Positions 2,303 through 37,766 of a DNA stretch of 64,000 nucleotides are shown piece by piece. Positions within the stretch are counted from its first letter, which is position 1; each line of letters starts with the position of its first letter. The position numbers were made by a program, and so were the translations under genes. The notes beneath the pieces are model-generated. The model searched no databases. It had not been told where the DNA came from and saw only the letters and a program-made list of their open reading frames with translations. The DNA is taken from contig NC_092670.1 in the NCBI RefSeq assembly GCF_964355755.1, positions 31,856,388 through 31,920,387 of the forward strand, given 5' to 3'. The stretch is from Antedon mediterranea. Lineage: Eukaryota; Animalia; Echinodermata.

Positions 2303-3994
2303 TTATTCTATAATTTCTAAGTATTCGACATTACTGTCATTGTTATCGGTACTGGTGATTGTTGTGCTGTATACATGGGTTGTTTTCGCGGGCTGTAAGT
2401 GGTTTTGTACCGCGTGTCCATCCAGTGGTTTGAAGGTTGTCGGAGATTCACTGTTGACATTCAATCTATAGCAATAACCTTTATTTGTAAACAACTGTTC
2501 GGTTTTACTTGTGCTGTTTAAAGTTTGTGAGGGTGGCATATTTGCGTTTTCAGCTCTCACTATCTGCCCGCTTGTTGAAGGTATGTTTTCATCTGCAGGT
2601 TGTTTAGCTTTTGTATTTCTCTTTTTAGGTATTGGCGGTTTATTTTTTACTTTTGTAGCTTTCGCTGTAAGTTTCGCTTCTCGAGCTCTTGAATGTTTCT
2701 CATTGTTTCCTATGTCATGATAGACGTTTTCTTCTGGTCGTTCTACTGCAATCTGTACAAGTTTAGCTTCATTGTCGTGTTCGTTTGTTTGATCTTGCTG
2801 GCTTCTTGAGGTTTCAACATTACTGTCTTGCCTGCTACTTCGAACTTGTACTACATTGTTAGACTGTTTACCGTGTTTTCTTATAAGTAAGTGAATCAAT
2901 ACAAGTACAATGATTAACAATATTCCAGATGTAGATACAAAAATTATAATGATTAAATCTTTTTTCGTTATATATTTATTGTACTTCCCTTCGTTAGTAG
3001 TTTCAGAAGTACAGATTGTGCAAAGAGATGCTTGTGTGGGTGCTTCTTCAATTTCTCCGTTGACATATATTTCATCAAAGCTGCGTTGACCAACAGAACT
3101 CACCAGGCATTTGATGGTGTAATTACAGGCTGCTATATTGGAGAAACATATTTCATTGTCATCATTGTAACTCTTTATCTCAGTCATGTCATGACTATCT
3201 ACTGTCCAGTTATATAACTTATCACTTATAACTCCACCAGTAGCTACACATTTAAAGCAATGCTCACCAAAACGATGCTGCATTGTCTTGATTCTCACTG
3301 TTAATCGTGGATGAACATTTAGTATTTTTGTATAGCACCAATTCATAATACCGGCTTTCTGATCTTCTCTTGAAAGACAATAAAAGAATAGACCTTCTCC
3401 CCATTGGTAACCGTTGAAAATTTGATTAAAACGCACAGTCTCTCCGTTAGCATCTAAATCGTAAGTCTGTGTAGTACTATTTTTTCCTTGGATCCATCCA
3501 GTTTTTATTTTCGAAATTTGTGTTTTTGATAATAAACGTTTCACTGTGCATGTAATGGTTACTTCTTCCCCTTCTATGATATAATTTACTAAATCTTCAC
3601 ACGCAATTCTCCAACCGAAATATATTATATCATTCTGCTTAACGCTGCCTGAAGGAATCACAAAGTATTGATTGTTGATGTCTTGGCAGGTGTATATTCC
3701 ATCTTCTTCTTCTTCTTGAGTAAGCCTATCGTAAGAAATGAATAGTTCACATTTGACTTTTATCAGATTTGGTGCAGAATGTTTTGCAAAATCAGTACAG
3801 TTATGAGTAAATGTATAATCAGATTTATATGAAACTGTATACTCCTTACTTAACGGTACAATGTTAAGAGGTTGTGACCAGCTTTTCATTGAATAATAAT
3901 ACACTTCAAAATCAACATTGTTTTCTTCAGCCCGACAATCTTTGACAATCATTAAGAAAAATATTACGATGAGATACAACATTATTTTCGTCAT
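2303..3994 (-). CDS. Single-exon type I membrane receptor with Ig-like modules and tyrosine-motif tail, copy 1 (563 aa, intact)
   Basis: Uninterrupted ORF. Signal peptide MTKIMLYLIVIFFLMIVKDCRA; ectodomain motifs GIYTC, EGEEVTITC...GW...FYC, FKCVA..YNW..NYTIKC; TM LIIIIFVSTSGILLIIVLVLIHLLI followed by RKH; tail with ENVYHDI and terminal VEYLEIIE. Paralogous to four other loci in the window. Confidence 0.85.
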   Translation of the reverse strand: MTKIMLYLIVIFFLMIVKDCRAEENNVDFEVYYYSMKSWSQPLNIVPLSKEYTVSYKSDYTFTHNCTDFAKHSAPNLIKVKCELFISYDRLTQEEEEDGIYTCQDINNQYFVIPSGSVKQNDIIYFGWRIACEDLVNYIIEGEEVTITCTVKRLLSKTQISKIKTGWIQGKNSTTQTYDLDANGETVRFNQIFNGYQWGEGLFFYCLSREDQKAGIMNWCYTKILNVHPRLTVRIKTMQHRFGEHCFKCVATGGVISDKLYNWTVDSHDMTEIKSYNDDNEICFSNIAACNYTIKCLVSSVGQRSFDEIYVNGEIEEAPTQASLCTICTSETTNEGKYNKYITKKDLIIIIFVSTSGILLIIVLVLIHLLIRKHGKQSNNVVQVRSSRQDSNVETSRSQQDQTNEHDNEAKLVQIAVERPEENVYHDIGNNEKHSRAREAKLTAKATKVKNKPPIPKKRNTKAKQPADENIPSTSGQIVRAENANMPPSQTLNSTSKTEQLFTNKGYCYRLNVNSESPTTFKPLDGHAVQNHLQPAKTTHVYSTTITSTDNNDSNVEYLEIIE

Positions 3995-6660: not shown

Positions 6661-6667
6661 AACTGTA

Positions 6668-8000
6668 CTATGTCTCCAACACAAAATAATGAGGTGCTTC
6701 AGTGTCATTGCTGTCACCTTCTAATCTATTCGCATTAATTATTGGATTTGTTCTTAACTTGTTATCATCCGTATTGTCTGTTTTAACATAGACATTCTCA
6801 TCATTCCTATCTGTATTGCCAATTGTATAGTAAGCATCTTCTTCAGCAGCGGTCTGTGGAACATTAGACACATTCATATGGGTGTTTCTCTGATTACTTG
6901 CAGTAGGCCTTGGATTCTTGCCGGACTTTCTCTTAAGTAGATATAAGAAAATAAAAACCACTATCAACATACAGAATGTTGATGCTGCCAGTAACTCTTT
7001 GTAATGATCTTCTTCAGTTGGACATTTATACATATCGGTACTTGCTTGTGTTGGCACAGTATATGTACACCCATCGTTGCTATCTACAACATCAACCTTA
7101 GTTGGTTTATCATCATTGACGATGAACTCTATTTCATCAGAGCTATATTGATAATAAGCACTCACCAGACATTTGACGACGTAATTACCAGCTGTTAAAT
7201 TGTTGAAACACATTGTGTTACCATGATCACTATCATTCTCGGTCACTTCCTGACTATTTAATGTCCAATTATAAATGTTTTCTTTACCAACTCCAGATGT
7301 AGCCACACATCTAAAACAGTGATCACCAATATTTAGATGCATTGTTTTGACTGCCACCATTAATTGAGGGTGAACCTTAAGAATTAACATATAACAGCCT
7401 GTGGTACTGTATGTAATGCAATAGAAAAAAATGCCTTCCCCAGAGCTGTAACCTTTAAATGTTTGGTTGAAACTTACTACCTCTGTGTCAGAATTCAAAT
7501 CATATGATTGCGTAATGTTATATTTTCTTTGTATCCATCCTACCGTTATTTTATAATTGATGTTCTGTGTTTGATATACGTTTCACCTTGCACGCAATCG
7601 TTACTTCTTCTCCTTCAATGATGTAATCCACCATATCTTCACATGCAATTTGGTAAATGAATTCTTCTACCGTATCCCGATAGACTCTATCCGAAGGAAT
7701 CGAGAAGTATTTACTATCATCATATTGGCATGTGTATATTCCTATTTGTTGTTGTGTATTAAAAGATATGAAAAGTTTGCATTTTACTATTAACGTCTGT
7801 GATACAGTATATCCTACTTTGTTGCCTATCTCAAGCTTAATATACTCCTTACTTGACGGTATGATATCAATAGGTTGTGACCAATGTCTACTAGTGGAAT
7901 AGTAATAGTGAAAACTGACAACCTTTTCTTCTGCCCCACCATCTCTGAAAATCATCAATAAACTGATCAAAAGAAGACAATTATTAAGAAACGGTATCAT
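6668..8000 (-). pseudogene. Receptor copy 2, frameshifted (or encoding a 149-aa secreted form)
   Basis: ATG at 8000 (MIPFLNNCLLL...). At 7559/7560 it reads cat-c-aat-tat where copy 5 reads cat-tac-cgc-aat-tat (5 nt missing), giving TAA at 7551-7553. The shifted frame continues NYKITVGWIQ... into ORF 6668..7498 with TM and a shorter tail. Confidence 0.8.
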
Positions 8001-9660
8001 TTTCCTTAATTGAATCAGTAATGCTCCAAATAATAAGCGAATTTGTATAAGTGTTGTTAAAATAAAGATGAATGTTTTATTATTCGCTACACGGAAGTAA
8101 AACAATTATTTGCGTTTTAAATTTAAACAACAACAAAAGTATTGTTTCCAACCTGTTACGTGACATAGTCACGTGCTTAGGACCTTATCGTCTGTTTAAA
8201 AACAGTTCATTTTCTGTCGAATGAAGTATATGATAGCGTTTGTTATCTTAGTAAGTTCTATAAAGTGTTCTAGATACTAAACAATAAGTAATTTTCCTTG
8301 CTAAGTAGTAGAGAACATTTTTAAGATAGACTTTTTACAAACCTCTCTCAACCTTCCAAAGCTTTATATGATTATAATTAATTATAATTGTTATTAGTTA
8401 ATTTGCAAGCCAAGATAATGATGTAAACTTTTAGGCTGTAAACAGAATTCTCGTTTTGAGTTTTCCATAGATTGTGAAAGTCATTATAAAATAACTTTTC
8501 ATCTGATGATATCAAACCAAAGCCCCTGGGAATCAAATTTGTTTTAGTTTAGTGAAGTATTCTCAAACGTAATGAAGCAAAACAACCAATTGCATTGTCG
8601 TTCGTTAGCTTTTGATTTATGACAACATTAGGCAACTAATTGTTTCCCATTGTTTTGAGTAAGCTTATAATTAAACAATATGCTTTGTTGTTAAGAATGA
8701 GAACAGGAACTACAGTAAATAACTAAATATTAACGTATTAATTTGTTGAAATCTTTTTAACTTGTTCGTGGTGATTCTATTCATTAGAATATTATTAATG
8801 TAAGTTATTACCTTCCACAGAAAATGAATTCTTTGTTTTTGTTTTTAGCACGTTCAAATACAGTATCACACAAATCTCTAAAATGATCAGTTACATCTTG
8901 ATATTACAGACGATTGTTATAAACAGCAGTAAATTAAACTGTGTTTATATTTGTTCATCATATCTAAGAAAAAAGATTTTTTTAATTCGAAAATCAATTT
9001 AGTAATAGTCGTACAATCAAAACTGATAGACTTATTATTAGGCCTATCAACAACATACAAGCTTCTAAAAGAAAACTGTTAAAATAACTATCAATACTAT
9101 TAACTTAACTATTCACAAATATTCTTTATTTTTTCTAAGTTTGGTTCTTTTTCCTAGAAAATATTATTTGATAAGTTTCCTTATACTCGTTAAAACAATA
9201 AAGAAACAATTATTATGTGGTTTTGTCAGGGTGTGGTTGCGGAATCAAGGAAATAAAACAAGTTATTAACGTTTTAAGATGAAATAGCAACAACATTGAT
9301 TTCCAGACTGTTCTGTGTCATAGTTGTGTGCTTATGACATCATTTTCTATTTAGAAAAAAATAACAATTTACAATTCATAATATTATAATAAAAAAACAC
9401 ATTTATTTTTATACGAACCTTATTTCTAAACTTGGTCTGTTGATTTTATCTTCTTATTACAAAGTGTAGTGTGACATGAAATGGTTATGATGAAAACAAT
9501 GGTAGGCCTACAGTTTATCGGAACCCTAACAAAATAAACTATTTCATAGAATAGTATTTGTGTTTTTACTTTCAGCAAGACAGTAGGATATGTAAAGACA
9601 AACTTTACAAAATGTCGCGAATCGATTTTGAACAGGATCAGTGTCGTTCTGTTTAAACTT

Positions 9661-10919: not shown

Positions 10920-11193
10920 TTATTCTATTATTTCTAAGTATTTTTGAACATTTCTCGTCATTTTGGATATCATAATACAGTTTTTCTTCTGGTCTTTCTA
11001 CTTTCATATCTTTGATCGGTGAATTGTGTAAACCCTCTTTGATGGTGTCTTCAGTTTCTGTTTGTTGGCTTCTTGAGGTTTTAACAATACTATCATTTCT
11101 GCTGCTTTGGGCTTGTTTTACATTGTTTGGCTGTTTCTCGTGTTTTCGTATGTAAAGCAATACAAGTACAACAATTATTAATATTCCAGATGA
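10920..11193 (-). pseudogene. Receptor copy 3, doubly deleted relic (TM plus part of tail)
   Basis: SGILIIVVLVLLYIRKHEKQPNN...RPEEKLYYDI matches the copy 5 TM/tail. The terminal YLEIIE* codons (10920-10940) are present but out of frame after an internal deletion; the ectodomain is missing. Confidence 0.85.
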
Positions 11194-13367: not shown

Positions 13368-13495
13368 TGATCTCTGTGTCAAGAGAATGGCCAAAAACAC
13401 AATATGATAGTTGTTGCAAATAGAAACCTCCCTCTCAGATTAGGTTTTATTACAATTCATAATTTAACAAATTAAACTAATTATAGGCCTAGTTA

Positions 13496-13576: not shown

Positions 13577-13611
<35 letters not shown>

Positions 13612-15516: not shown

Positions 15517-17007
15517 TTACTCTATTATTTCCAAGTATTCATTATTACTGTCAATATCGATGATATCCTTACTGTGTGGATGTCTTGTGATAGGCTGTAA
15601 GTAATCTTCTACTGTACCCAATGATTTGTCATTTATTGGAGCATTGCTGACCTTAAAGCTAAATCCGTAACATTCATTTGTAAAAACCTCAACATGTTCT
15701 CTTTTATTTGCACTAGGTCTATTTACTTTATGCGATGGAAATTCCATATCTGCGTGTACCACATTCATTTGCGTACTTGTTGAAGGTTGATCATCATTGC
15801 TAATGTTATAATATATCTCTTCTTTTGTATTTTTCCTCGTAGAAGTGAACGGTTTATTGCATTTTTGCTTAACACTCACAATACTGTTCAATAACCACTT
15901 TGTTGAACTTTTCTCTTCGATTTCAAACTGCATTTTTGCTTCTGTTTTTTCTAATTTCATCATTTTGATCTGAGAAGAGTGTATAATATCTTTGACGTTA
16001 TCTGTCTCATTGGGTCCTGTTTGTCGACTTCTGGAGGTTTCAAAAGTACTATCTTGTCTGCTGCTTTCAATTGGCATTGTATTGTTTGGCTGTTTATCAT
16101 GTTTTCGTTTAATCAACAATAGTACAATAATTATTAGAATTCCGGATGTAGTTGCCAATATTATACTTACCGGTATTAGATATTTACAGTCATTCACTTG
16201 GTTTGTAATTTGAGAAGGCCTGCCATTGGCTATTGTATTTGAAATTCCTGCTTCAGTAATTGGCACAGTGTATACTGAACCATTGCCACCTTCTCCATAT
16301 TTTTCATTTGTATTATCTTTTACGATGAACTCTATCTCATCAAAGCTGTGTTGATCATTCTTACTCACCAGACACTTGGCCACGTAATTACCAGCTGTTA
16401 AATTCTTGAAACATCTTTCGTTGTCACAATCCTTATTATTTTCTATCAGTTTTTTATTATTTAGTGTCCAATTATAAAATTTGTCATCACAAAATCCACC
16501 TGTAGCTACACATTTATAACAATTTTCACCAACATCTGCGGTCATTAATTTTATCTTCACCATGAATTGAGGATGAACCTTTAAAACTAGTGTATAACAA
16601 TGATTCGTTGTAGATAAACTTTCTATTGAGATAAAATTTGTTTTTCTATAAATATTGTTCGTTTTTAACATTCGTTTCACCTTGCATGACATTATTACTT
16701 CTTCTCCTTCTATGATGTACTCTACTAAATCCTCACATGCAATTTTCCAATCAGAGTATATTATATTATTTCTACGGCTGACACGGTCCGAAAGAACTAC
16801 AAAGTATTTATTGTCGTTATTTTGACATGTGTATATCCCTTCTTCTTCTTGTGTATCAAAAGAAATGAATTGTTCGCATTTAACCGCCAATTTTGATGCA
16901 GAATATTGTTTGAAAGTGTGCTCAACAGTCAATTTACCGTACATTAACGTAAGATCATACTCTTTACTTACCGATATGATGTTTATAGACTCTGACCAAT
17001 CTCTACT
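15517..17007 (-). pseudogene. Receptor copy 4, 3' portion (gene interrupted by LTR retrotransposon)
   Basis: Open frame SRDWSESINI...NNEYLEIIE*. The first ~20 aa of the tracked ORF (to 17070) are LTR sequence. Joins in frame to 31287..31394 after removing the element and one GGAAG (532 aa). Confidence 0.9.
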
Positions 17008-17012
17008 GGAAG

Positions 17013-20000
17013 TGTGCTGCCCTCGATAACGGTCGCGTCTTCTAGACAGCCAGATAACCAAATAAGACACTAGATGTACATATAGGTAGAGTTTCGTTAC
17101 TAACGTTTATTATGCGTCGTATCGTAGTATATTATATTGGTAAAACTGTGGAGGATTACAAAGAAAAACATTATCTAGACTACATTAAAAATAGCAATAC
17201 AGCGTACAAACATTGTATTTAGCTGTTTAAGCAAAAAAGGTAACGTAAATGATAATCATATATAACTGCTATACTAACCTAAATTAATTAATATCTTTAA
17301 TTGCTATAACATTTCAACAAAGGTTTAGGCATCAATGGTAAAATTATGCCTTATATGCATTAAGACTAGGAATGAATTAACAATAAATCATCGTCCTAGA
17401 TTGTAGACTGTAATTATTAAAATAGATACTGTACATATATAGCCAGTACTATATAAAGTAGTAACTTGATTAAATAGTATATATGGACCTATATATGGCC
17501 TAATTAAAAGTTAAAATAACAATCATAAATTAACATGTACTCACACACTGTGATTCTCAAATAGAGGCACGTAAAAGGTATAAAAAGAAATGAAACTTGT
17601 AAACGAAAAGCATATAAAAGCTTGTGGACTTCTCTCGGTGAATGCTACTGTATTACTAATACTTTATACTGTACAATGTACAAATTAAGTCAATGCATTG
17701 GAATGTCCAAATCCAAACAAGTGCCTTAATGATAATACAGTGTGCGAGGAAGGAACAAGATAGAGTAAAGGCTACTGAAGTACTTAATTTTCTGAATGTA
17801 AATACGACAATATCAAAACCGATTAGACTTGGAACTAAGCGAAATGATGAGAAACCACGATTGCTTCGAATAACTGTAGATGGAGTTGAAGTCAAGAGAG
17901 AAATTCTGAAAAAAGCTAAGGGCTTAAAGCAAGCGGTAAATAAAGGCTACGATAGAATATTCCTCACACCGGATCTCACACCATCTCAAAGAGAAGAAAG
18001 TAGTAAATTGAGAGCTCAGTTAAGGCTACGTAGAGATAAAGGTGAGAACGTTATTATAAGGAAGAGGAAGATTGTATCAGTGCAATCCTTTCGTGACCAC
18101 TAAGAATATAAATGAACCTAATCGCACAGCACCTTTATTTTTACAAGAAGATTTTGACTTAGAAGAAGATATTTCGTTCAGAGACAATACTTTTGTTGAA
18201 CACGATTTTGAACTTGCAGCCCAAGAAGAATATTTAAGTTGTTTTTATACCAACGCAGAAGGGTTTTTGAACAAACGAAGCGAATTTTTTGTTTTGATAG
18301 AAGAAAGGAAACCGCACATAATTGGTATTACTGAAACATGGTTGAGCGATAATGTGCTAGACGCTGAAATAGCAATGAAAGGTTATAATTTGTTTCGCAA
18401 GGAAAGAGCGAATAAAGCGCATGGTGGATTGTTATTATATGTTAATGAGAAACTACATGTTACCATTTGTAATGAATTGTGTCAATTAAATCCTGAATCG
18501 CTATGGTGTACTGTGGAAGTTGATAAACATAATAAAGTTCTGATAGGTCTTTGCTATAGGAGTATGTACAACACACCTGATGAAAATGAGCAATTGTTTT
18601 ACCAACTACGTTTTATTGAATCGGTACAATCTGACCACGTGTTGATAATTGGAGATTTTAACCTTAAAGAAATTAATTGGAAGGATATGTTGGTTAATGC
18701 TAGCGTTACACATCCATCAAACACTTTTTTTGAAATAATCAACGATTTATACTTGGTGCAACATGTCAAGAGTAATACGCGACACAGAGATGGACAAAGA
18801 TCATCCCAATTGGACCTTATTATTACTGATGATGATTTTAAGGTATCTAACCTACTACATTTACCCCCTTTAGGGAAAAGTGACCACGATTGTTTGTTTT
18901 GGCAGTACGTCTATAAACTTGATATTCCCAGTAAGGAAACCAAGTCATTTCACAACTACAACAAAGGCGATTATATAAGCATAAAGCGTGAACTGAGTAA
19001 TATCAATTGGTCCGATGAATTTGATAATCAAACTACCGATGAAATGTACAACAGTATTAATGAAGTATTGTGTAATATGACTGAGTTATATATTCCTACA
19101 TTTGGAAGTACTCGTAGTAAAGGTCAGAATAAACCCTGGATGACATCAGCTGTTAAAAAATCAGTAAAAAAGAAATATCAACTGTACAAAAGCTTCAGAG
19201 AAACACAAAACGAGAGAGATCATATGGCTTACAAGAAACAGAACAATCGTACTAGGCAAGCTGTAAGGAACGCTCAAGCTACCTTCGAAAAAAAAATCTT
19301 GATGGAATTCAAAAACAAACCAGAGAACTTTCATAAGTATGTTAGATCGAAACAGAAAGTAAAGACTGGAATAACAAAATTAGTAAATAATGATGGGCTA
19401 ACCTTGGAAACTGACTACGAAATTAGTGAGGAACTCAACAAATGCTTCCAAACATTTTTCACCAAAGAAGATCCTGACGAAGACATAACCAATTTTAATT
19501 ATGATACTTGTGACAAATCAGTTGAAAATATTGAGTTCTCCCAAGAAGATGTTTTTAAGCAACTCCGAGGTTTGAAAATCGATAAAAGTCCTGGTCCAGA
19601 CAACATCCATCCATGTCTACTTAACAAGTGTGCTGAGGAGTTATCAGAACCCTTGTACCTTTTATTCAAGAAGTCTACAGAGGAAGGTAAACTACCAAAA
19701 ATATGGAAACGAGCTGATGTCTCTCCGATCTTTAAGAAAGGCAGCAAATCACAAGCGTCCAATTATCGACCGATAAGCCTAACATGTATTATTTGCAAGA
19801 TCTTTGAACATATTATTCGTAACAACATACTACGACATGTTAAGAACAATGCAATACTAACAACAGAGCAACATGGTTTTGTTGAGAAGAAATCATGTCT
19901 GACAAATCTTTTAGAATTTATGGAAGATGTTACTAAGGCCTTGGATGACAACAATAATGTTGATGTCATATTTTTGGACTATAGTAAAGCTTTCGACAGC

Positions 20001-21230: not shown

Positions 21231-21263
21231 CTCCTCGTCTGGCATAACTCATGTCATAACTAA

Positions 21264-24200
21264 CTATTCGGATACAAGAACCACCAGATCTGAAATTGGT
21301 CTTGAATATTTTTTCATTCCATCTCCCTTCTGCGTTGTCAGTTCAACGTGCCTCACTAGGCCATCTGTACCAAGAAAAGCTTTCACCACTCTTGCAATCT
21401 GCCATTCGTTTCGATGTGCTTGCTTGTCTTTAAGCAACACAATATCCCCTTTCTTAATTGATTGCTTGGTGTCTTGCCATTTAGGTCGACGTTGCAAGTT
21501 TGAAATGTAGTCTTGCTTCCAACGTTTCCAGAAAGAATTCGCCAAACTCTGGACATGTCTCCACTGGGAAGTGTAAGATGTATTTGCGTCAAAATGTCCT
21601 AGGGGTGCACAATTTGTATTTGGTTTTTGCGTAAGCAACATAGAAGGTGTTAGGATTGTTGGTGCATCAGGATCAGTTGAAACCGGTACCAATGGTCTGG
21701 AATTAATAATGTCCACGACTTCTGCCATCAACGTTGTAAGAATGTCATGGGTCAGTCTTGCTTGTTGATGTTGATTCAACATGGAGTCGAGAATGCGGCG
21801 TGCAATTCAAATCATCCTCTCCCAGGCTCCTCCCATGTGGGACGAATGAGGTGGGTTGAAGATCCATTTGCATCCTTTAGACTGAAGAAAGTTCTTAACA
21901 TCATGCGTTCCTATCTGAAGGTTGAGTTCCCTTACCGCTCCAACAAAATTAGTTCCTCTATCGGATTGAATAATTCTTGCTGGTCCCCGAAGTGCAAAGA
22001 ATCTGCGAAGGGCGTTGATTAAGCTTGAAGCTGTCATTGTCTCTAGAACTTCAATGTGCACGGCACGAGTCGACATGCACGAGAAGATTACCGCCCATCG
22101 TTTGCTATTGGCACTTCCACCCCTGGTACGTCTAGAAGTCACATTCCAGGGTCCAAAGACGTCTATGCCCACACTGGTAAACGGAGGTGATGGTGTGATG
22201 CGGTCTAGTGGTAAGTCTGCCATCTTCTGTGTCGCAGTTTTGCCTCTTAATTTTCTGCAGGTCACACACTTGTATATCATTGTTGAAACAAGCCGTTTTC
22301 TTCCAATAACCCAATATCCACCGGATCGTATTGCTCCTTCAGTTATGTGACGACCTTGATGGGCCACTCTGCGGTGATGATACCTAGCAATCAAGGTTGC
22401 CACATGGTTATCCGCTGGTAGAATTATTGGATGTTTTTGGTTGTAATCTATCTCTAGATTTTCAGAGCGCCCTCCGATTCTAAGTAGCCCGTCGTCTCCC
22501 AAAATAGGATCTAAGTTTCGAAGAGTGCCGGTCTTTGGTAATGGACGTCTCCTTTTTAGACATGCAATTTCATCTAGGTACGTCTCTTCTTGGACCGCCT
22601 GCACCACAACGATTCTGGCTGCGCTAATCTCCTCTAGTGTTATCTGGGAAGTAAACATTCCCCCATCCGTTGTTCTTTTTCAACTTGAACGAAGCTGCCA
22701 GTTTTACCGAAGTTTGTACATAACATCTTGGTACCTTAAGATTTTCCATGTGGACTAGTGACTGTTTCCAACTGTCCCACTCTTCTTTGTATTCTGGATT
22801 AAGAGGAGCGTCCCAATCGACAGTTCCGGAGCTTAACTTTCTCACAAGGATTTTCCCTTGTAGAGTGATTAGTGATACAAGACCTAATGGGTCAAATAGG
22901 CTGTTGACCACAGACAAAACTCCCCTTCTAGTGTATTCATCATTCTTTTGTGCTGATATCTTGAAGTTGAAGCTGTCTGTTTCCAAGTCCCATGATACCC
23001 CGAGACTTCGTTGGCATGGTGGAATTTCGCTTTTCAGATTGATGTTTTGTAAGTCTTTGGCCTTGTCTGCTTCGTCCAAAGCAGCCATTACTTGTTCACT
23101 GTTGGACGCTATTTTGTGAAGGTGTAAGTTGCTTTCTGCAAGCATTGCCTTCGATTTTTGTATTAAGGCAATTGCTTCTACTGCAGTAGGTAATGATGTT
23201 AGTCCGTCATCAACGTAAAAATTACGCAAAATATATTGACTTGCTTCCGAACCATATTTTTGTTCGTATTCTTTTGCTGTTCTGCCCATACAATAGATAG
23301 ACATTGATGGTGATGGGGTGTTACCAAAAACGTGGACTTTCATTCGGTAATCAATTACTTCGTTATCCATGTTGTTGTCCTTGAACCACATGTATCTAAG
23401 ATAGTCACAATGATCTTCTCGAACATTGAAGCAGTAGAACATCTGTTCAACATCAGCTGTCACTGCAATTGGTTCTTTCCTGAATCTCAAGAGGACACCC
23501 AGAAAGGAGTTGTTGAGGTCAGGACCACTCAACAGAACTTTGTTGAGAGATACACCTTTCCACTCTGCACTTGAATCAAACACCACCCTTATTTTGCCTG
23601 GTTTCTGTGGGTGATAAACTCCAAACATGGGGAGGTACCATCGTTCTTTTCCTTCTTCCATAGGCGGTGCTGCTTCTGCATGTTTGTTTTTTACCATGTT
23701 TCCAATAAATTCAATGAATTGTTTCTTCTGTTCCGGTTTTTTATTTAAGGTTTTGCACAAACTATTGAATCTTCGTTGAGCCAGATCACGATTGTCTGGT
23801 AGAGGTTGTTTTAACGGCTTGAATGGTAGAGGAGCTACCCAACTACCCTTGTCATCCCTGAATGCATTATTGTCCATTATGTTCATGAACTGATGATCCT
23901 CAACAGACATTGCAGGCTTATCATCGTTTTCTCCAACATTAAATACTGTTCGTCCTATTTCAGGCTCGTTGTCGTTTTGCTCGATCAAGTGGATTGCATT
24001 AGGGCAGGTTGGAAACTGTGTGACGTTCGCCTTATATACATTGGTTTGCTCCAGCGGCAACTGAACTTCGTCTAAACATGTTTGGCCGACAATTACCAAA
24101 CCTAGATCGAGTCGTTGAGCGTAAGGAGCATTGTCTGGGCCATTTATCTGCTCTCTGACTTTTTGCGCTTGTACTACATCTCTGCCAATCAAGAGCAATG

Positions 24201-26745
24201 AATTGTTTCTTCTGTTCCGGTTTTTTATTTAAGGTTTTGCACAAACTATTGAATCTTCGTTGAGCCAGATCACGATTGTCTGGTAGAGGTTGTCTTAACG
24301 GCTTGAATGGTAGAGGAGCTACCCAACTACCCTTGTCATCCCTGAATGCATTATTGTCCATTATGTTCATGAACTGATGATCCTCAACAGACATTGCAGG
24401 CTTATCATCGTTTTCTCCGACATTAAATACTGTTCGTCCTATTTCAGGCTCGTTGTCGTTTTGCTCGCTCAAGTGGATTGCATTAGGGCAGGTTGGAAAC
24501 TGTGTGACGTTTGCCTTATATACATTGGTTTGCTCCAGCGGCAGCTGAACTTCGTCTAAACATGTTTCGCCGACAATTACCCAACCTAGATCGAGTCGTT
24601 GAGCGTAAGGAGCATTGTCTGGGCCATTTATCTGCTCTCTGACTTTGTGCGCTTGTACTACATCTCTGCCAATCAAGAGCAAGATTGGTATTTGGTGATC
24701 AACCTCTTCCATTTGATTTGCGATTTCGTTTAGATGAGGGTGATGAAGAGCAATATCAGGGGATGGTATTTCTTCCATGTTACCGGGAATCATTTCACAT
24801 TCTCTTATGTACGGTATCTTTATCAATGTTTTGCCGTCCATAGATCGAATACACATCTTGTTGGTTGATCTTCCCAACGTTTGAACACTTCCTGAGCAGG
24901 TACGTAAGGTAAAGGAAGTAGGTTTTGATGTGTTCCGGAAGTGGTCGAATAATTGTGGTTTTGCCAGTGTCCCATTACTCTGATCGTCAATGACTGCATA
25001 AACCACAAGCGCTTCAGCTTCACGGTTTTCTGGGAAAATCAGTAACTTGCAAATTTTGGAACACGAACGTCCGCCAGGAATGTTTTTGCACACTTGAGTG
25101 CAAAGCGGTGAGAGTGAAGGTTTGACACCATCTTCTCTCTCCTCGCCGTCTTGTTGTGAGGTTGAAGCAAGAGCATCTTGCTGTGGAGGTGATTCTTGGA
25201 CTGCAGTGTTGTTTGAAGTGGCGTCTGGATGCATGGCGGTGATATGCCTCTTGCTTTTACAAACTACACACTCAATCGCTTCTTTGCAGTCACGGGCTTG
25301 ATGTGTGTTTGATGCGCAGCATTTGTAACAAAGGTTACACTCCTTCAGCAGAGCTTTCCTCTCTTCTATTGGTTTCTGCTTGAAGGAACGGCACTTTGCC
25401 AAAGTGTGTCTAGCTTTGTGTATCGGACACCAATTATTCAGTCTCTCTGCAGTCTCTTTTTTGCCATGTGGCATTGGGCCAACATTTGTTCTATTCACGG
25501 CAAGTGATCTTGGGGGTGGTTTGTTGTTGCGTGCAGGCTTCTCTGACACAGGTGATTGGAAACTGGGGTCATTTCGCATATCCGCCTGATTGGTTACAAA
25601 ATCCACAAAAACTTTGAATGGAGGGAAGGTGACCTTCTTTTCCGTCTTATACTGTGTTCCCTTGACATCCACCTTTCTTGAAGGTTATAAGGCAATTTTG
25701 TAACTATCGGATTTACACCATGTGCTGAGTCCAGTGACAGTAATCCGGAGTACAGTCCTTCTTCTTTTGCACAGTTTACTTCAAGAAGAAGGTGTTTAAG
25801 CTCACGAAGCTTCAGGTGGTCCCTGAGTTGGAACTTTGGAAATTCTTCAAGTCGTTGAAGTAGGTCCCTTTCAATGACTTCTGGAGCACCATACGTTTTG
25901 TCCAGATTTTCCCATACCATGTGTAAACCTTTTTCGGGATTATTTACATTGATGGCTCTAAGAGGCATCACAAGTTGTAACGACTGCTCCCCTAACCACT
26001 TTGTAATTAGATCGAGTTCTTGAGACGATGACAAGCGCAGGTCATTGGTGACTCTCTTAAACGATGCCTTCCAAGGTCTATAGTTGGCTGTCTTGTCATC
26101 GAATTTAAGAAGACCTGACGCTACAAGCTCTTTCCGCATAAGATGATTTGTCAATGCATCAACTGCTGGAAAACTGGAATGGTCGACAGGTTGAGATGTT
26201 GGTAACTGCATTGATTGCCGTTGTGGTTCTTCCTGAGGGATGGGTGTGAAATGTCTGGTCACATAGTTTTCCATGCGTTGAGCTGAATTCTGAGGAGGCG
26301 GCAGGCCTAGCCGGTCAGATAAACTTGTGTTGTGGCTCGGAGGCCTAAATTCAATTTCATTATCTTCGTAGGCTGCCGCTTCTGCTGTTGCCATGGCGGC
26401 TTCTTTTTCAGCTTGAAGAAGATAGAAGTCTGCTTGTTGTTAAGCCTTTTGCCTTTCCAGTTCGGCTTCTTTGCGCATAATTTCTGCTTCTCTTCGGGCA
26501 AACTGGAGTTTGGCTTTAGTAATTTCAGCTCTTGCACGTGCTCGTGCAGAGCTGGTTGTTGATGATTGAGTATTGACATGATCATCTTCTGGAGACTGTC
26601 GTTGTGCATGTAGCAATGGATGCTGTTGGTGACTTGTCACGATAGATGCAAGCCTTGGTTCCAATGCTGATAGTCGATTTATTCTGTCCAATCGACGATC
26701 TTCTTGACTACCTAAGTTGTAGTTTCTTCCGGATCTTGTAGACAT
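21264..26745 (-). pseudogene. BEL/Pao gag-pol polyprotein, disrupted
   Basis: Consecutive ORF pieces 26745-26440, 26394-25594, 25672-24032, 24198-22624, 22658-21807 and 21782-21264, broken by stops, frameshifts, a 484-bp duplication and loss of the RNase H region. Confidence 0.9.
23712..24679. repeat. 484-bp direct tandem duplication within pol
   Basis: 23712-24195 repeated at 24196-24679, about 8 mismatches by eye, CAA microhomology at the junction. Confidence 0.9.
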
Positions 26746-27383
26746 GTTGTAGGTTGAGTAGTGTTTTTACTGTGCTGCCCTCGATAACGGTCGCGTCTTC
26801 TAGACAGCCAGATAACCAAATAAGACACTAGATGTACATATAGTTAGAGTTTCGTTACTAACGTTTATTATGCGTCGTATCGTAGTATATTATATTGGTA
26901 AAACTGTGGAGGATTACAAAGAAAAACATTATCTAGACTACATTAAAAATAGCAATACAGCGTACAAACATTGTATTTAGCTGTTTAAGCAAAAAAGGTA
27001 ACGTAAATGCTAATCATATATAACTGCTATACTAACCTAAATTAATTAATATCTTTATTTGCTATAACATTTCAACAACGGTTTAGGCATTAATGGTAAA
27101 ATTATGCCTTATATGCATTAAGACTAGGAATGAATTAACAATAAATCATCGTCCTAGATTGTAGATTGTAGACTGTAATTATTAAAATAGATACTGTACA
27201 TATATAGCCAGTACTATATAAAGTAGTAACTTGATTAAATAGTATATATGGACCTATATATGGCCTAATTAAAAGTTAAAATAACAATCATAAATTAACA
27301 TGTACTCACACACTGTGATTCTCAAATAGAGGCACGTCAAAGATATAAAAAGAAATGAAACTTGTAAACGAAAAGCATATAAA

Positions 27384-30300
27384 TAGGCATGAAGCTGAGG
27401 TGGATTTTTGTTTCATTTCGTGACCACCAGAAAGGGATTTGACCAAATTGACATGATTATTACTAAATATATATAATAAAAGTATTGTGAGTTTTCACAA
27501 ACATATTGCTTGCACATTAGTTTACAATCTCATTTTTAAAACTGATAAAATAGTTTTTTACAACCTCGTACACTACAACCAATCAGAAACATCGTATAAG
27601 CACCTGCTTGGTTACTTCTTGTATTGACCAATCAGAGATGATGTATTATCACTGTTTGGGCATAGTGCAGAGTAAAGATGGCAGCTTACATGTCAGATGG
27701 GGATCACCATTTGCGATGTTTTATGTGCATTTTTCCAAGCAAAAAGTCTTCAGTAGTAAAATTTAATGACAAGACATGGCCAACATTTTTAGAATATGTC
27801 ACCAAATGGAAAAATTTAGAAGGAAAACAAGCAGAAATTGCCAGAAATTACATCGCGAAATGTCAAGAAGGCCTGCAAGTGCCAACAACCATCATGCAAG
27901 ACGAACAAGGTTCAATCTAGGCCTAGGCTAGTACTAGTAGTAGGCCTGCTGTGTGTGGAATTTCTATATGTGCTGGCTTTCATCAAGTTTGTTATTCTAG
28001 GTTTACTGACAAGCAGAGAGTTGAGAGAGTGCAAAAGAAAGTACAATTTGAAGCTAGCATTGGTAAGTTGATAAATATAAAAATTAAAATATTAAATTAT
28101 TATTATAATATTATTATAGGCCTAGGCTAGCCTATATTAATTAATAATATAGCATGCCCTACCAGTACTAGTAGTAGTGGGCTAGTAGTAGTAGGAGTAT
28201 AGGCCTAGCCTAACTAAGCTACTATATTACTATTAAGGCCTACTAGTAGTACTACTGTCTGTAATATACCTAGCCTAGGCTAGAGAGAGGCCTAGCTTGG
28301 ATTGTTATATTTTATTACGTTTCATATTAAAAGTGCTTTCCTTTAAGTAGACCCCTGGCCAATTAAAAAAAAAAAATTGTTAGATGTTTTAGCTTGCCAA
28401 TCCACTTAAGATGATTTTAAATTAAACCGATGGTAATTGTGCAAAAATGTATACTTGCTATTTTGACTCCTGGCCATTTGTTCATAGTATATAAATATGT
28501 TTATGCTTTTGATAACTTATAATTAAATTACTGAAAATCTAAAGCATAATAAGCAGTTATTATAGTGATATCTCTATTTTTTATTGTATGCTTTAGCATC
28601 AACATCAACTAATGAATCTGCTATCAACATGGAAGAGACAGATGATGGTATTTCTCGACCACCACCAATCAAAACACGATGTCTACGTTCAAGCACAGAT
28701 TTATTCAAAAGTAAAGGCAAAGCCAGGTCGCACTGTGTATTGCCAAGCATCTGTGTTCTGTATTATTCTGTGTAAAAAAGACAAAAGCATCACTTGTCGA
28801 ATAACAAGAAAAAGTGTTCGATAATAGAAGCACGTAATCTAGTTCAGGCAGCCAAAGACAACAACAACACTGAACTACTTCTTAAAATTCAAGGTAAAGA
28901 CTGTGTTGCTATCGAAGTGCAATACCACCCTACTTGTTATAAGAACTTTACTCGGTATTTGGGTAAGCCCAATGAAGCAAGTACTTCTCTGGACACAAAA
29001 TATTCTGAAGCGTATGATGTATTTTGTACCACAGTAAAAACAAATATTATTGACAAAAAGGAATTTTACAGGCTGACAAAACTCAATCAATCAAACAGAT
29101 AAAGACTTCCTAGATAAACAATTGCTTCATGAAGAAATGTACAATATACTGTAACTGATACAGGAACAGACACAAATGTGCCCAATGTTGAAGATCATCA
29201 CAGACATAATACACCTTACACCATGAAAGAATGTAATGACAGTACCTCCAGAGACGCATCTGAAGATTCTAGAAATTTCCCAAGACATTGTTTACCCCCT
29301 ACCCCATTATTGTCAACGATTACTAATGACGAACAAGTTTATTTATAATGCACAGCATATTCAATTTTGAAAAAATGTTAAATTCAGTTTTCTTATTTAT
29401 TGTGTCTATAGGTTTAAGAAAACATTAGTTTGCATAAGATATCTTGTATTTTTGTGTTTAAAATTGAAATTTATAAGCTAATTTCGAAGAAATTGCATTT
29501 TTTATTAAAGGTCAGTGACCGTTTGACCTCTGAAGATGTCAATAAATGTTGGATTCATTTTTTAAAAGGTATATTACAATTAGGCAATCTATACACTACA
29601 TACAGAAAAATGCAAATCTGTTAAAATTGTAAGTTATTCACAAAAATGTTACCCCCTACCCCATAATTGTAAATGATTACAAATTACTAAAAACAACAAA
29701 TTTCTTCATAATACATAGCATATTCATTTTTTGTTAATCTTTAATTTCAATTTTCTTGTTTATTGGGTCTATATGTTTATGAAAACATCAGTTTCCATAT
29801 TATCTATTGTATTTTTTTTTGTTAAAGTTAGAAAAAAATTCATTTTTTTATTAAAGTTCAATGACCTTCTGACCTCTAATGTTGTCAATATTTGTTGGAT
29901 TTATTTAGAAAAATATATTAGGCTTAAGCGTTCTATACACTACATTCTGATACCAAGAAAATGTAAATCTGTTCACTCAATCCCAAGTTATTAGCAAAAA
30001 TGTTACCCCCTACCCCAAAATTTTGTGTTGCATATTTTCCGTAGGCGGTGTTATATAATCTTAAAAAATGACTATTAAGCTGTACAATTGGCATTGCTAT
30101 CATGGATTTCTGAAAAGTAGACATGCTAAGCTTTCCAAAAATGTATGATAGCGTTTGCCACCAATTTGATACTGAAAAAATGTCTGGCCCATGTCTGCTA
30201 TGTATGTATAGATATACTTACATAGACAGCTTCATTATAATATGTGTTTTTGATGGTTCATGCTGTAATTACAGGGTAATTGGTTTATTTTATAGCTTTT

Positions 30301-30722
30301 AAAGTTCATTAATTGTATTTCTGATGCAAGAAAACATATAATTAGACATCAAAATCACTGAAATCTAATAATGTTTTCTGTATATTTTGCATATGATAAA
30401 GATAAAAGTTCGTTGACCTTTGAACATTTTTGGTGATAACACCCTCATGTACGATTTGATGCATACCAAACTATATATTTTTGGATTCTTTGCATCCAGC
30501 CGAGTATTTTGATATATAATTTGCCATAAATGGACTATTTTTCATATTTGACCTTAATTGACCTTAAAATCTCGCTAACGAACAAGTTTTGAGCTTGTGA
30601 AAAATAATATGTTGTTCGTATGATCCTACTGCTCCATCATACAAAAAATTACGAAATCCCTAGGTGGTGGTCACGAAATCGAAAAACTAATTGCATATAA
30701 AATGCCTATGGCCTGCTGTCTA
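27384..30722 (+). mobile_element. Defective DNA transposon, probably Academ (TAG...CTA termini, 3-bp TSD)
   Basis: Empty site gcatat-aaa-agctt in the other LTR defines an AAA TSD; subterminal IR atttcgtgaccacc / ggtggtcacgaaat; twin CCAATCAG boxes before ATG 27678; decayed coding fragments including DCVAIEVQYHPTCY (28794-29102). Confidence 0.7.
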
Positions 30723-30835
30723 AAAAGCTTGTGGACTTCTCTCAGTGAATGCTACTGTATTACTAATACTTTATACTGTACAATGTACAAATTAAGTCAA
30801 TGCATTGGAATGTCCAAATCCAAACAAGTGCCTTA

Positions 30836-31130
30836 GGGTATGTTCAGACCTACGGATCAGCTTGGCTATACGATGAGGAGCACATGTCACGATGTGATGT
30901 GGCGAATATTGTAATTTGATTGGCTAGATATCTAACCTAGGTCATATTTATCGATGCGTGACTTTCGTATTGTAAGCGACGTCCACTAAACTCATACCTT
31001 GAGCTTTCGTAGCGTACGAAATATCAGTGTCGTACGAGGTGGCTTCCACTAATCTTTTCCTGGTTCAGACCTATGGACTTGTACGCCGCGTACAATACGA
31101 AAGCATAACTCCGTAGGTCTGAACAGGCCC
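30836..31130. mobile_element. PIF/Harbinger-type MITE (295 bp)
   Basis: TIRs gggtatgttcagacctacgga / tccgtaggtctgaacaggccc; TTA TSD; empty site gtgcc-tta-atgat in the other LTR. Confidence 0.9.
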
Positions 31131-31286
31131 TTAATGATAATACAGTGTGGTACTCCAGGTCAAAACTAGGAGTAACCATGGTAACAATTAAAGTTGCAAT
31201 AAATTCAATAGTGTACTGACTACATTTTATATTTAGGATAACTATACTAAATAAATTTGTAAGGAAATTTATTTGGAGACAAAATA

Positions 31287-31394
31287 GGAAGAATAATAGT
31301 AATGAAACTCAATTATTTTGTCTTCTGCCTCAACATTTCTGACAATCTTCAATAGACAAGAAATTACCAGAAGACACGTATTAAGAAACGACAT
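31287..31394 (-). pseudogene. Receptor copy 4, 5' portion (signal peptide)
   Basis: ATG at 31394: MSFLNTCLLVISCLLKIVRNVEAEDKIIEFHYYYSS, homologous to the copy 5 N-terminus; ends at the TSD. Confidence 0.9.
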
Positions 31395-36035: not shown

Positions 36036-37766
36036 TTATTCTATTATTTCTAAGTATAAATTGTCACTGTCATTATTATCATCATTGATGATTTCATTGC
36101 TGTATAGATGTGTTGTTGTTATAGGCTGTAAGTAGTCTTGCAGAGTATCCAATGATTCATTAATGACATTGAAGCTACCACCATAACATTCATTTGTGAA
36201 AACCTCAATATGTTCCGTTTTGTTTTTACCAGCCCTGTTTACATTTTGGAAGGGAATTTCCATATCTTCGTGTGTATCTCTTACTACTTCTACCTGCTTA
36301 CTGGTTGAAGGTTCATCATCGTTGCTAATGCTATAATATACCTCTTCAGCTTGTTTTTTGTCTATCGTATTTTTCCTTGTAGATGTGAACGTTTTATTTT
36401 GTGTCTTCTTAGCCTTCTTTAGCAAATTTGTTGAACTTTTCTCGTCATCGTCGATGTCATAATAAAGTTTTTCTTCTTCTGGGCGTTGCTCTAGTTTAAT
36501 CGTTTTTATAATGTGTGAAGGTTGTACAATCTCTGTTATGCTATCGGTTTCTTCAGTTGTTAGGCTTCTGGAGGTTTTAACAATACTACTTCTTTGAATA
36601 TGCATTATATTGTTTGGCTGTTTCTCATGTTTTCGTATGAAAAGCAATACAAGTACAACAATAATTAGTATTCCAGATGTAGTTGCTAGTATTATAATTA
36701 CTAACTCTTTGTTGGCTATATCTTTACTGTTCTTCACTTGGTTGCTGAGTTGAGAAGTACTAGTTGTATGCAAAAATGATGTTTGTGAAGGTGTATAACC
36801 GGTTAAGGCGTTTGTACTTACAATCTCCGTTTGTTGTGATGTATCATCTTTAACTATGAAATCTGTCTCACCAAAGTTGTACTGATCATCTGTACTCACC
36901 AAACATTTGACATTGTAATTCCCAGCTGTTAAATTATTGAAACAGATTTTGTTTCCGCAATCACTATCAGTCACCTTGTCACTATTTAATCTCCAATTAA
37001 ACACTTGTTTGCCATATCCATGTAAAGCTAGACATTTAAAGCAATTTTTATCAACATTGTTGATTGCCACCATTAATTGTGGATGAATCTTAAAAGTCAA
37101 TGTGTAACACCGATGGATTAGACTATCGGGGGTTAGGAATAAGGAAAGACAATAAAAGAATAAACCTTCTCCCCTTTGAAAACCCCTGAGTGTTTGATTA
37201 AAACTTACAGTCTCAGTGTCCGTATTACATTTAAACGACTGTGTAATGCTGTTGTTCCCTTCAATCCATCCTATGGTCATTTCATAATTGCGGTAATGTT
37301 TGGTTGAGAATGATATAAGTTTGCATGCGATTGTTACTTCCTCTCCTTCTATGAGGTACTCCACTAAATCTTTACAGGAAATTCTCCAATCGAAATAGTT
37401 CTGTATGCCTGTAGTTTTTAGGCTGACGCTGTATGAAGGAATCACAAAGTATTGGTTATCATCGTCTTGACACGTGTATATCCCTTCTTCTGACTGTGTA
37501 TTATAAGAAATAAATACTTCGCATTTGACTTTTGTAAACTTTGATCCCGAACGTTTTTGTAAAACTTTGTCGTTAACAGTAAAATTACCATAATATGAAA
37601 CGCGAAAATCATATTCTTTACTTGATGATATGATGCTCAAAGATTGTGACCAGTGTCGACTTGAAGTAAAATAAAAATCAAACTCAATAATTTTTTCTTC
37701 TGCACCAATATCTTTGACAATCATGAAACTGACAACCATAAGACACGTATTTAGAAACGGCGTCAT
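36036..37766 (-). CDS. Single-exon type I membrane receptor, copy 5 (576 aa, intact)
   Basis: Signal peptide, same Cys/Trp scaffold (EGIYTC, EGEEVTIAC, GEGLFFYC, NLTAGNYNVKC), TM LVIIILATTSGILIIVVLVLLFI, tail with EKLYYDI, EEVYYSI, DYLQPI, LYLEIIE. Confidence 0.85.
   Translation of the reverse strand: MTPFLNTCLMVVSFMIVKDIGAEEKIIEFDFYFTSSRHWSQSLSIISSSKEYDFRVSYYGNFTVNDKVLQKRSGSKFTKVKCEVFISYNTQSEEGIYTCQDDDNQYFVIPSYSVSLKTTGIQNYFDWRISCKDLVEYLIEGEEVTIACKLISFSTKHYRNYEMTIGWIEGNNSITQSFKCNTDTETVSFNQTLRGFQRGEGLFFYCLSLFLTPDSLIHRCYTLTFKIHPQLMVAINNVDKNCFKCLALHGYGKQVFNWRLNSDKVTDSDCGNKICFNNLTAGNYNVKCLVSTDDQYNFGETDFIVKDDTSQQTEIVSTNALTGYTPSQTSFLHTTSTSQLSNQVKNSKDIANKELVIIILATTSGILIIVVLVLLFIRKHEKQPNNIMHIQRSSIVKTSRSLTTEETDSITEIVQPSHIIKTIKLEQRPEEEKLYYDIDDDEKSSTNLLKKAKKTQNKTFTSTRKNTIDKKQAEEVYYSISNDDEPSTSKQVEVVRDTHEDMEIPFQNVNRAGKNKTEHIEVFTNECYGGSFNVINESLDTLQDYLQPITTTHLYSNEIINDDNNDSDNLYLEIIE

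What the first reader, a model, noticed from the sequence alone, without database searches (positions are those of the whole stretch)
2303..37766. Tandem cluster of an unrecognised, intronless Ig-like receptor family in birth-and-death turnover
Seen: five co-oriented paralogs (2303-3994, 6668-8000, 10920-11193, 15517-17007 plus 31287-31394, 36036-37766), each signal peptide / Cys-Trp ectodomain / single TM / Tyr-rich tail, with no introns in the CDS although neighbouring BRCA1 has 14. The scaffold (KVKC, GIYTC, EGEEVTIxC, GW, FFYC, FKCxA, NW, GNYxxKC) is conserved while the residues between diverge strongly. Only two copies are intact; three were damaged by different routes (frameshift, deletions, retrotransposon). 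Established: clustered, fast-diverging Ig-fold receptors with Tyr tails and many pseudogenes typify immune and allorecognition loci (Hydractinia Alr, fish NITR, mammalian KIR/LILR), but those are multi-exon. Inference: a lineage-specific self/non-self or pathogen receptor family, perhaps founded by a retrocopy.
Basis: partly seen in the sequence, partly recalled or inferred. Interest (0 to 1): 0.88.

Follow-up and report, generated by a model that had tools for sequence, protein, structure and literature searches.

The report
Intronless Ig-like receptor cluster, crinoid-restricted
An animal that is likely a feather star carries a tandem row of five related genes without introns in the coding sequence, two intact and three broken, for membrane proteins predicted to have three immunoglobulin-like domains; they likely act as immune-type signalling receptors, and their only named relatives are uncharacterised feather-star proteins.

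Summary
Five minus-strand paralogs lie at the stated coordinates. Copies 1 and 5 are open single-exon frames. Copy 2 is frameshifted, copy 3 keeps only the membrane segment and part of the tail, and copy 4 is split by a young BEL/Pao element and lacks part of domain 2. Three further relics were missed. An AlphaFold model (pLDDT 76) gives three beta-sandwich domains; domains 2-3 match Ig-superfamily structures, while domain 1 is barely tested. The only relatives found are two uncharacterised Antedon mediterranea proteins and one unnamed fragment. No domain has dN/dS above 1 (paralogs 0.23-0.55; copy 5 against a related organism 0.29-0.44). Copy 5 is identical over three pieces in a second sample, which argues against Alr-type allorecognition. 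Shared flanks show DNA-level duplication; a retrocopy founder is untested. Best reading: an undescribed crinoid family of likely immune-type Ig receptors, with old duplications and at least one recent loss. Function and expression are untested.

The parts
2303..3994 (-). Copy 1: intact single-exon ORF, 563 aa; signal-like N-terminus, three Ig-like domains, TM about 347-371, 192-aa tail ending VEYLEIIE (strict ITIM)
6668..8000 (-). Copy 2: whole ectodomain but frameshifted near 7575-7582 in domain 2; divergent TM and shorter 88-aa tail (19-26% identical to the other tails)
   Evidence: break not checked against runs
8651..8784 (-). Relic of a further copy: proximal upstream region like that of copy 5, no coding body
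9246..9357 (-). Second upstream-region relic, 74% identical to the region upstream of copy 2
   Evidence: E 2e-12
10920..11193 (-). Copy 3: TM, proximal tail and out-of-frame C-terminal YLEIIE; ectodomain and proximal upstream region deleted; the far upstream element survives at 11280-11435
15517..17012 (-). Copy 4, main body: domain 1, domain 2 with an in-frame deletion of about 45 residues (loses GW and FFYC), domain 3, TM, full tail
17013..31286 (-). BEL/Pao LTR retroelement inserted in copy 4 with a 5-base target duplication; LTRs differ at 8 of 854 aligned bases; a LINE sits in one LTR and two other elements in the other
31287..31394 (-). Copy 4, 5' piece: start codon, signal-like stretch and first residues of domain 1
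36036..37766 (-). Copy 5: intact single-exon ORF, 576 aa; domains about 23-118, 119-228, 229-308; TM about 353-377; 199-aa tail with EKLYYDI, EEVYYSI, FTNECY, DYLQP and C-terminal YLEIIE
   Evidence: ortholog with open ectodomain in organism B
47893..48181 (-). Sixth coding relic: decayed tail only, stops in all three frames
   Evidence: E 3e-13 to the copy 4 tail

Best explanation
These are tandemly duplicated single-exon genes of a family so far found only in crinoids, encoding membrane proteins predicted to carry three Ig-like domains, which likely work as immune-type receptors that would bind a surface ligand outside and signal through phosphorylated tail tyrosines inside. Shown: the gene anatomy, the family's narrow range in the databases, DNA-level duplication, old divergence between copies (ectodomain dS 0.65-1.05), recent loss of copy 4, and purifying selection on copy 5. 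Predicted: the fold. Inferred: ligand binding clusters the receptor; a Src-type kinase phosphorylates the acid-flanked tyrosines (EExxYxxI and the C-terminal YLEII); SH2 proteins dock there, with a phosphatase on the ITIM-like end making the output inhibitory or modulating; and the conserved FTNxxY motif binds a PTB/FERM adaptor for uptake or recycling. Copies that are no longer needed decay by deletion, frameshift or transposon insertion.
For: Fold: model pLDDT 76, pTM 0.67, all-beta; residues 98-286 align with CD22 (Z 9.8, rmsd 5.8, 175 aligned; Z 10.1, rmsd 5.7, 169 aligned), tied within about 1 Z with Dscam and SYG-2; the family profile matches NCAM2 across three domains at E 0.0025 and FCRL5 at E 0.008; Atlas hits are Ig clusters at 0.90-0.92. 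Tail: FTNxxY, PSTS and the C-terminal Tyr are invariant in copies 1, 4, 5 and the Antedon protein P0001, among 23 invariant of 129 ungapped columns; NxxY is a stated SNX17 FERM sorting motif (PMC11772769 passages). Function retained: copy 5 against organism B shows 12 synonymous and 13 non-synonymous changes in 286 codons, pN/pS 0.29 (p 0.002), or 0.35-0.44 with transition weighting (p 0.009-0.046), and no indel or stop. Turnover: 2 intact of 5 copies plus 3 relics. Omega of 0.23-0.55 is high for a conserved adhesion gene (general knowledge). Echinoderm precedent: most sea urchin TLRs are single-exon, some lie in tandem arrays, and 67 of 253 are pseudogenes (PMC3367398 passages).
Against: No domain has omega above 1, and the ectodomain (0.35) is not faster than the tail (0.42). 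The distal domain is not more divergent between paralogs than the others (40-58% identity, against 41-56% and 38-56%), and its higher pN/pS against organism B (0.55 versus 0.11 for domain 2) is not significant (Fisher p 0.29). No ITAM in 6 of 6 tails and a strict ITIM in 1 of 6. No charged residue in any TM segment, so no activating partner form. The fold matches are to immune and neural adhesion proteins alike, and domain 3 alone fits non-IgSF sandwiches as well (Sas6 Z 9.6, rmsd 1.6, 72 aligned). Nothing here ties the genes to an immune tissue or ligand.
Confidence: 0.5

Rival explanations
1. Non-immune adhesion or cell-sorting proteins (nectin, NCAM or Dscam-like role in tissue, nerve or regeneration), whose spare copies decay neutrally.
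For: Best sequence match is NCAM2; Dscam, SYG-2, IgLON and nectin-like chains tie with CD22; purifying selection throughout; the NxxY motif is also typical of adhesion receptors (general knowledge).
Against: No ortholog outside crinoids among 1.84 billion representatives, omega of 0.23-0.55, and more than half the units dead, which is unusual for developmental adhesion genes (general knowledge).
Confidence: 0.2
2. Gamete-surface recognition proteins, for example a retrocopy-founded testis family with Ig-like domains.
For: Intronless, lineage-restricted, moderately fast-evolving Ig-like membrane proteins fit sperm-surface families (recalled, not tested here).
Against: Long tails with conserved signalling and sorting motifs; no excess of non-synonymous change between organisms A and B, where gamete recognition proteins often show one (general knowledge).
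Confidence: 0.13
3. A self/non-self allorecognition locus like Hydractinia Alr, working by allele-specific homophilic binding.
For: Same architecture class (clustered, non-canonical Ig domains, Tyr motifs, pseudogenes; PMC9546547 passages); hints of haplotype differences in the family: a half-depth contig in run X3 with a domain 2 segment that matches no window copy, and tail indels in X7 not in X6.
Against: Copy 5 is identical in three pieces from a second sample of organism A and shows 2 synonymous differences in one contig of X3; two samples of organism B differ at 6 of about 737 bases, 3 synonymous; no ITAM; no exon-per-domain structure. Contigs drop rare variants and only copy 5 was examined.
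Confidence: 0.09
4. The whole array is a dying or non-functional relic, and copies 1 and 5 are simply not yet broken.
For: 6 of 8 recognisable units are damaged; X7 may carry a frame-changing deletion in the copy 5 tail (table truncated).
Against: Significant deficit of non-synonymous change in copy 5; open frames kept over dS of about 0.7 between copies 1 and 5.
Confidence: 0.05
5. The intronless founder came from a DNA virus (an Ig-domain decoy gene) and was then amplified by the host.
For: Multi-Ig genes without introns are typical of pox- and herpesviruses (recalled); generic fold matches to herpesvirus glycoprotein C and a poxvirus IL-1 receptor-like protein.
Against: No viral relative by sequence: 0 of 8 pattern matches in viral contigs and none; the viral fold matches are no better than phage or host Ig-like chains (TMq at most 0.39); no other viral-type gene was seen next to the copies.
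Confidence: 0.03

Closest known systems
Antedon mediterranea uncharacterised proteins XP_071950092.1 (P0001) and XP_071957072.1 (P0002)
   Same: True homologs: E 1e-49 and 1e-36; same Cys/Trp scaffold; P0001 has the TM and the tail motifs PSTS, VEVFTNECYG and a C-terminal Tyr.
   Different: Only 35-46% identical to the window copies in the ectodomain; they lie on two different large contigs; unnamed and without Pfam domain; their exon structure could not be read here.
Hydractinia Alr family (PMC9546547, passages seen)
   Same: Clustered single-pass proteins with up to three non-canonical Ig domains, divergent Tyr-motif tails and many pseudogenes.
   Different: Alr domains are each encoded by one exon, have an Fn3-like spacer, and 14 proteins carry ITAMs. 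Here the coding sequence is one exon, no ITAM is present, no sequence similarity to Alr was found, and copy 5 is not visibly polymorphic.
Sea urchin TLR expansion (PMC3367398, passages seen)
   Same: Echinoderm, mostly single-exon, tandem arrays, many pseudogenes, species-restricted paralogs.
   Different: LRR-TIR proteins in the hundreds, with positive selection in the ectodomain and coelomocyte expression shown. Here the domains are Ig-like, there is no TIR, few copies are seen, and neither positive selection nor expression is shown.
Vertebrate inhibitory Ig receptors (CD22/Siglec, FCRL5, CEACAM, KIR/LILR, fish NITR)
   Same: Tandem Ig domains (best fold rows), single TM, tail Tyr motifs, clustered birth-and-death evolution (the last recalled).
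   Different: About 12% identity only; multi-exon genes (recalled); repeated canonical ITIMs and paired activating forms, neither seen here except one ITIM in copy 1.

Membership tests
Ig superfamily fold | Tandem beta-sandwich domains that superpose on IgSF chains (domains 2-3) | tested here: met
   CD22 Z 9.8-10.1, rmsd 5.7-5.8, 169-175 aligned; 67 of 48,161 chains at Z 8 or more, the top 50 listed being mostly IgSF
Ig superfamily fold | Domain 1 has an Ig (V-set-like) fold | tested here: inconclusive
   All-beta in the model but pLDDT 47-79 by block and barely spanned by fold rows; Pfam V-set E 0.016, 15.8 bits against cut-off 26; Atlas V-set rows below 0.9
Ig superfamily fold | Canonical B-strand Cys, C-strand Trp, F-strand Cys (spacing about 55-75, recalled) | tested here: inconclusive
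   Domain 2 fits (C148, GW, C206); domain 3 has short spacing (C245 to C288); domain 1 has C82 and C99 only. Disulfide pairing could not be read from the model
Ig superfamily fold | Match to a curated Ig profile at its gathering score | tested here: not met
   No Ig family reaches its cut-off for any copy, domain or homolog
Hydractinia Alr | One exon per Ig domain, spacer and TM | tested here: not met
   Copies 1 and 5 are single open frames; Alr rule from PMC9546547
Hydractinia Alr | Sequence homology to Alr proteins | tested here: not met
   No cnidarian protein among the 3 hits; no direct pairwise comparison with an Alr sequence was made
Hydractinia Alr | ITAM or ITIM in the tail | tested here: inconclusive
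   ITAM in 0 of 6 tails, strict ITIM in 1 of 6, ITIM-like YLEII end in copies 1, 3, 4, 5
Hydractinia Alr | Extreme allelic polymorphism of the ectodomain | tested here: not met
   Copy 5 only, few samples, contigs only: 0 differences in three X5 pieces; 6 in about 737 bases between X6 and X7
Hydractinia Alr | Allele-specific homophilic binding | not tested
Paired receptors (KIR/LILR/NITR type) | Activating members with a charged TM residue beside ITIM members | tested here: not met
   No charged residue in the best TM windows of copies 1, 2, 4, 5 or P0001; members outside the window not seen
Immune receptor (functional class) | Expression in immune cells, ligand binding, phosphotyrosine signalling | not testable with these tools
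   No expression or binding data were reachable
Retrogene | Intron-bearing parent gene, poly-A remnant and flanking target duplication | tested here: inconclusive
   No parent among protein hits; no genome held; flanks are shared between copies, so the present copies are DNA duplicates

The most novel reading that the evidence does not exclude
The first Ig-domain self/non-self or pathogen receptor complex of crinoids: a family with no introns in the coding sequence, spread over several loci, varying between haplotypes by presence and absence of whole receptors and not by point alleles, and signalling through an ITIM-like tail. It would be an echinoderm parallel to KIR/LILR and Alr that annotation misses because the genes are single-exon and fall below every Ig profile.
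Probability: 0.2. Interest if true: 0.85.

Novelty: new variant of a known kind. Interest (0 to 1): 0.5.

Why it matters
Echinoderm immune expansions described in the papers I saw are TLRs, NLRs, scavenger receptors and SpTransformer; nine literature searches listed no crinoid Ig-receptor family. This family falls below every Pfam Ig cut-off and is known only as uncharacterised proteins, so it shows what domain-based surveys miss. A whole three-domain receptor in one exon can be counted and genotyped straight from genomic DNA, which makes it a tractable test of whether crinoids use variable Ig receptors with inhibitory tyrosine motifs. Until expression or a ligand is shown, it is a new family of a familiar architecture, not a new kind of system.

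Tried and rejected
No whole genome is held, so genome-wide copy number and a parent gene could not be sought. A single-sequence fold failed (pLDDT 35.6) and was not used. A single-sequence PDB search gave 0 hits at E 10. A search for longer, fused forms gave 0 of 4117 candidates, which is weak evidence. Metagenome contigs gave 0 relatives among 67 pattern matches, and viral contigs 0 among 8. No RNA holder was listed among 9 runs; this says nothing on expression. Run X5 (RNA only by guess) covers repeats and flanks at low depth and was not used as transcript evidence. Domain 1 drew almost no fold rows, which does not show a new fold. The ectodomain tree has 0 of 3 well-supported inner branches, so no order of duplication is claimed. 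The codon model for the TM segment did not optimise (omega stayed at 1.000) and was dropped. Copy 4 residues aligned to copy 5 positions 150-219 were masked; they were not masked, where copy 4 domain 2 values are unreliable. A shared A(C/T)TTCC-like motif upstream of the start codons is not independent evidence, since the flanks are homologous, and my pattern count was mis-specified. Weak Pfam hits to Glycophorin_A, Orf78 and Y_Y_Y were rejected as below cut-off. Three look-ups of earlier findings returned nothing. Literature searches (listings only) showed no description of this family; subscription papers and supplements were not seen and could hold one.
Full report
Observation. Copies 1 (2303-3994, 563 aa) and 5 (36036-37766, 576 aa) are single open frames from start to stop, 41% identical overall. 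Copy 2 has a full ectodomain but changes frame near 7575-7582; this break was not checked against sequencing runs. Copy 3 keeps the TM segment, part of the tail and the C-terminus, and its far upstream element (11280-11435, 75% to the matching element of copy 4) now abuts the TM, so one deletion removed everything between. Copy 4 is split by a BEL/Pao element at 17013-31286 (Peptidase_A17, rve, RVT_1, DUF1759) with a 5-base target duplication, and it also lacks about 45 residues of domain 2. The two LTRs differ at 8 of 854 aligned bases, so that insertion is young. Three more relics were found: upstream regions at 8651-8784 and 9246-9357 and a decayed tail at 47893-48181. That makes 2 intact of 8 recognisable units. 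The neighbour is BRCA1, with 13 candidate coding exons found by eye, so the lack of introns in the cluster is not a property of the whole region.

Relatives. A word-indexed search gave 1 hit among 7450 candidates. A full phmmer over 1.84 billion representatives gave 3, and the family profile returned the same 3 among 3403 candidates. Two are uncharacterised Antedon mediterranea proteins on different large contigs and one is an unnamed 133-aa fragment. The window's own proteins are not in the collection. I infer that the organism is a crinoid near Antedon; no call names it. Single-exon genes are easily left unannotated, so the narrow range is an upper bound on what is known, not proof of absence elsewhere. 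No Pfam family reaches its cut-off.

Fold. With a nine-row alignment the copy 5 ectodomain models at pLDDT 76, pTM 0.67, all beta. Residues 98-286 superpose on tandem Ig domains: CD22 Z 9.8, rmsd 5.8, 175 aligned, with Dscam and SYG-2 within about one Z unit and NCAM and CEACAM a little lower. Domain 3 alone fits bacterial sandwiches as well (Sas6 Z 9.6, rmsd 1.6, 72 aligned). Independent sequence support comes from the profile match to NCAM2 over positions 50-247 (E 0.0025) and FCRL5 (E 0.008), with 7 of 8 rows at E up to 10 being Ig proteins, and from Atlas rows at 0.90-0.92. Domain 1 is only weakly assigned (V-set E 0.016; Atlas V-set rows under 0.9). Only domain 2 has canonical Cys-Trp-Cys spacing. 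The fold does not separate immune from adhesion function.

Tail. Tyr makes up 2.5-4.5% of the tails, less than in the ectodomains. There is no ITAM in 6 of 6 tails, a strict ITIM in 1 of 6 (copy 1, VEYLEI), and no charged TM residue. What is conserved is narrower: PSTS, FTNxxY and the C-terminal Tyr are invariant in copies 1, 4, 5 and P0001, and acid-flanked YxxI sites recur in copies 1-5. NxxY is a stated sorting motif for the SNX17 FERM domain (PMC11772769, passages). Reading the acid-flanked sites as Src-type substrates and SH2 docks rests on general knowledge.

Evolution. Paralogs are old: ectodomain dS is 0.65-1.05. Codon-model omega is 0.33, 0.23 and 0.55 for domains 1-3, 0.35 for the ectodomain and 0.42 for the tail (four sequences, three for the tail). 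Upstream and downstream flanks are homologous between copies, so the array grew by DNA duplication; whether the founder was a retrocopy is open. Nine public runs hold copy 5 DNA; I laid 5 of the 9. In organism B one contig spans the ectodomain with 26 differences (25 listed) and no indel: 12 synonymous and 13 non-synonymous, pN/pS 0.29, p 0.002, or 0.35-0.44 with transition weighting. By domain it is 0.55, 0.11 and 0.33, and the domain 1 versus 2 contrast is not significant (p 0.29). The second run of organism B gave 0.47 (p 0.11) over a partial cover. A second sample of organism A matches copy 5 exactly in pieces of 200, 291 and 258 bases at depth 3-5, and X6 and X7 differ at 6 of about 737 bases. 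Copy 5 is thus likely functional, moderately constrained and not hypervariable. Hints of structural variation remain. A half-depth X3 contig carries a domain 2 segment with 15 differences from copy 5, where copy 1 has 17, copy 2 has 23 and copy 4 lacks the segment. A 1370-base X6 contig has the same 15-base tail insertion as copy 4 yet keeps domain 2. Both suggest a copy 4-like gene without the deletion, or further paralogs; neither is proven.

Mechanism and rivals. The best reading is an immune-type signalling receptor family (0.5): ligand binding by the Ig-like ectodomain, tyrosine phosphorylation of the tail, SH2 docking with a likely inhibitory C-terminal motif, and adaptor-driven recycling through FTNxxY. 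All of these steps are inferred. Rivals are non-immune adhesion (0.2), gamete recognition (0.13), Alr-type allorecognition (0.09), a dying array (0.05) and viral origin (0.03; no sequence support).

Comparison and novelty. It is built like Hydractinia Alr and vertebrate inhibitory Ig receptors but is not a member of either: Alr genes have one exon per domain and often ITAMs (PMC9546547, passages). The gene-level pattern of single exon, tandem array and pseudogenes is known from sea urchin TLRs (PMC3367398, passages), which also show positive selection and coelomocyte expression that are not shown here. Nine searches (listings only) showed no account of this family. Verdict: a real, undescribed, crinoid-restricted family of single-exon Ig-like membrane proteins; a new variant of a known kind; interest 0.5.

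Noticed in passing
window 17013-31286: Nested elements: a LINE with endonuclease and RT (about 17744-21095) in one LTR of the BEL/Pao element; a 3.3-kb element with imperfect terminal inverted repeats (27384-30722) and a short insert (about 30836-31070) in the other LTR; a 484-base tandem duplication at 23712-24682 inside the internal region.
   Followed up: partly
window 6668-7100 (copy 2 TM and tail): Copy 2 has a nearly unrelated TM and tail (19-32% identity, synonymous sites saturated) on a normal ectodomain, and its domain 3 shows lower dS to the other copies (0.39-0.56) than domain 2 (1.0-1.7): possible tail swap or gene conversion, untested.
   Followed up: partly
window 36248-36706, runs X6 and X7: The copy 5 ortholog in organism B has tail and stalk indels; X7 shows a 5-base deletion at 36478 not shown for X6, a possible frame-changing allele. 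The table was truncated (55 rows not shown), so the net frame is unknown.
   Followed up: no
window 49215-61500 (+): BRCA1 with RING and BRCT exons and one very large central exon of about 4 kb (54053-58088), recalling the large central exon of vertebrate BRCA1.
   Followed up: partly
window 11448-13372: A 1.9-kb element with long inverted arms built of 41-base and 121-base tandem units, between copies 3 and 4.
   Followed up: no
window 42013-46360 and 41819-47579: Large inverted arrangement with 150-base tandem units in both arms, inside a 264-base inverted pair of 97% identity.
   Followed up: no
window 63578-64000: A 61-base tandem array, 6.9 copies at 98% identity, running off the end of the window.
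   Followed up: no
window 9661-10332, 13642-14238, 34273-34832, 40217-40875, 52916-53427: Five copies of a 500-650-base dispersed repeat, several bordered by GTCG/GTCT microsatellites.
   Followed up: no
copy 4 and 5 TM segments (about 36640-36710): A polar ATTSG stretch (small-xxx-Gly) is kept in the TM of copies 4 and 5 and as STSG in copy 1; it could mediate dimer formation (motif recalled).
   Followed up: no
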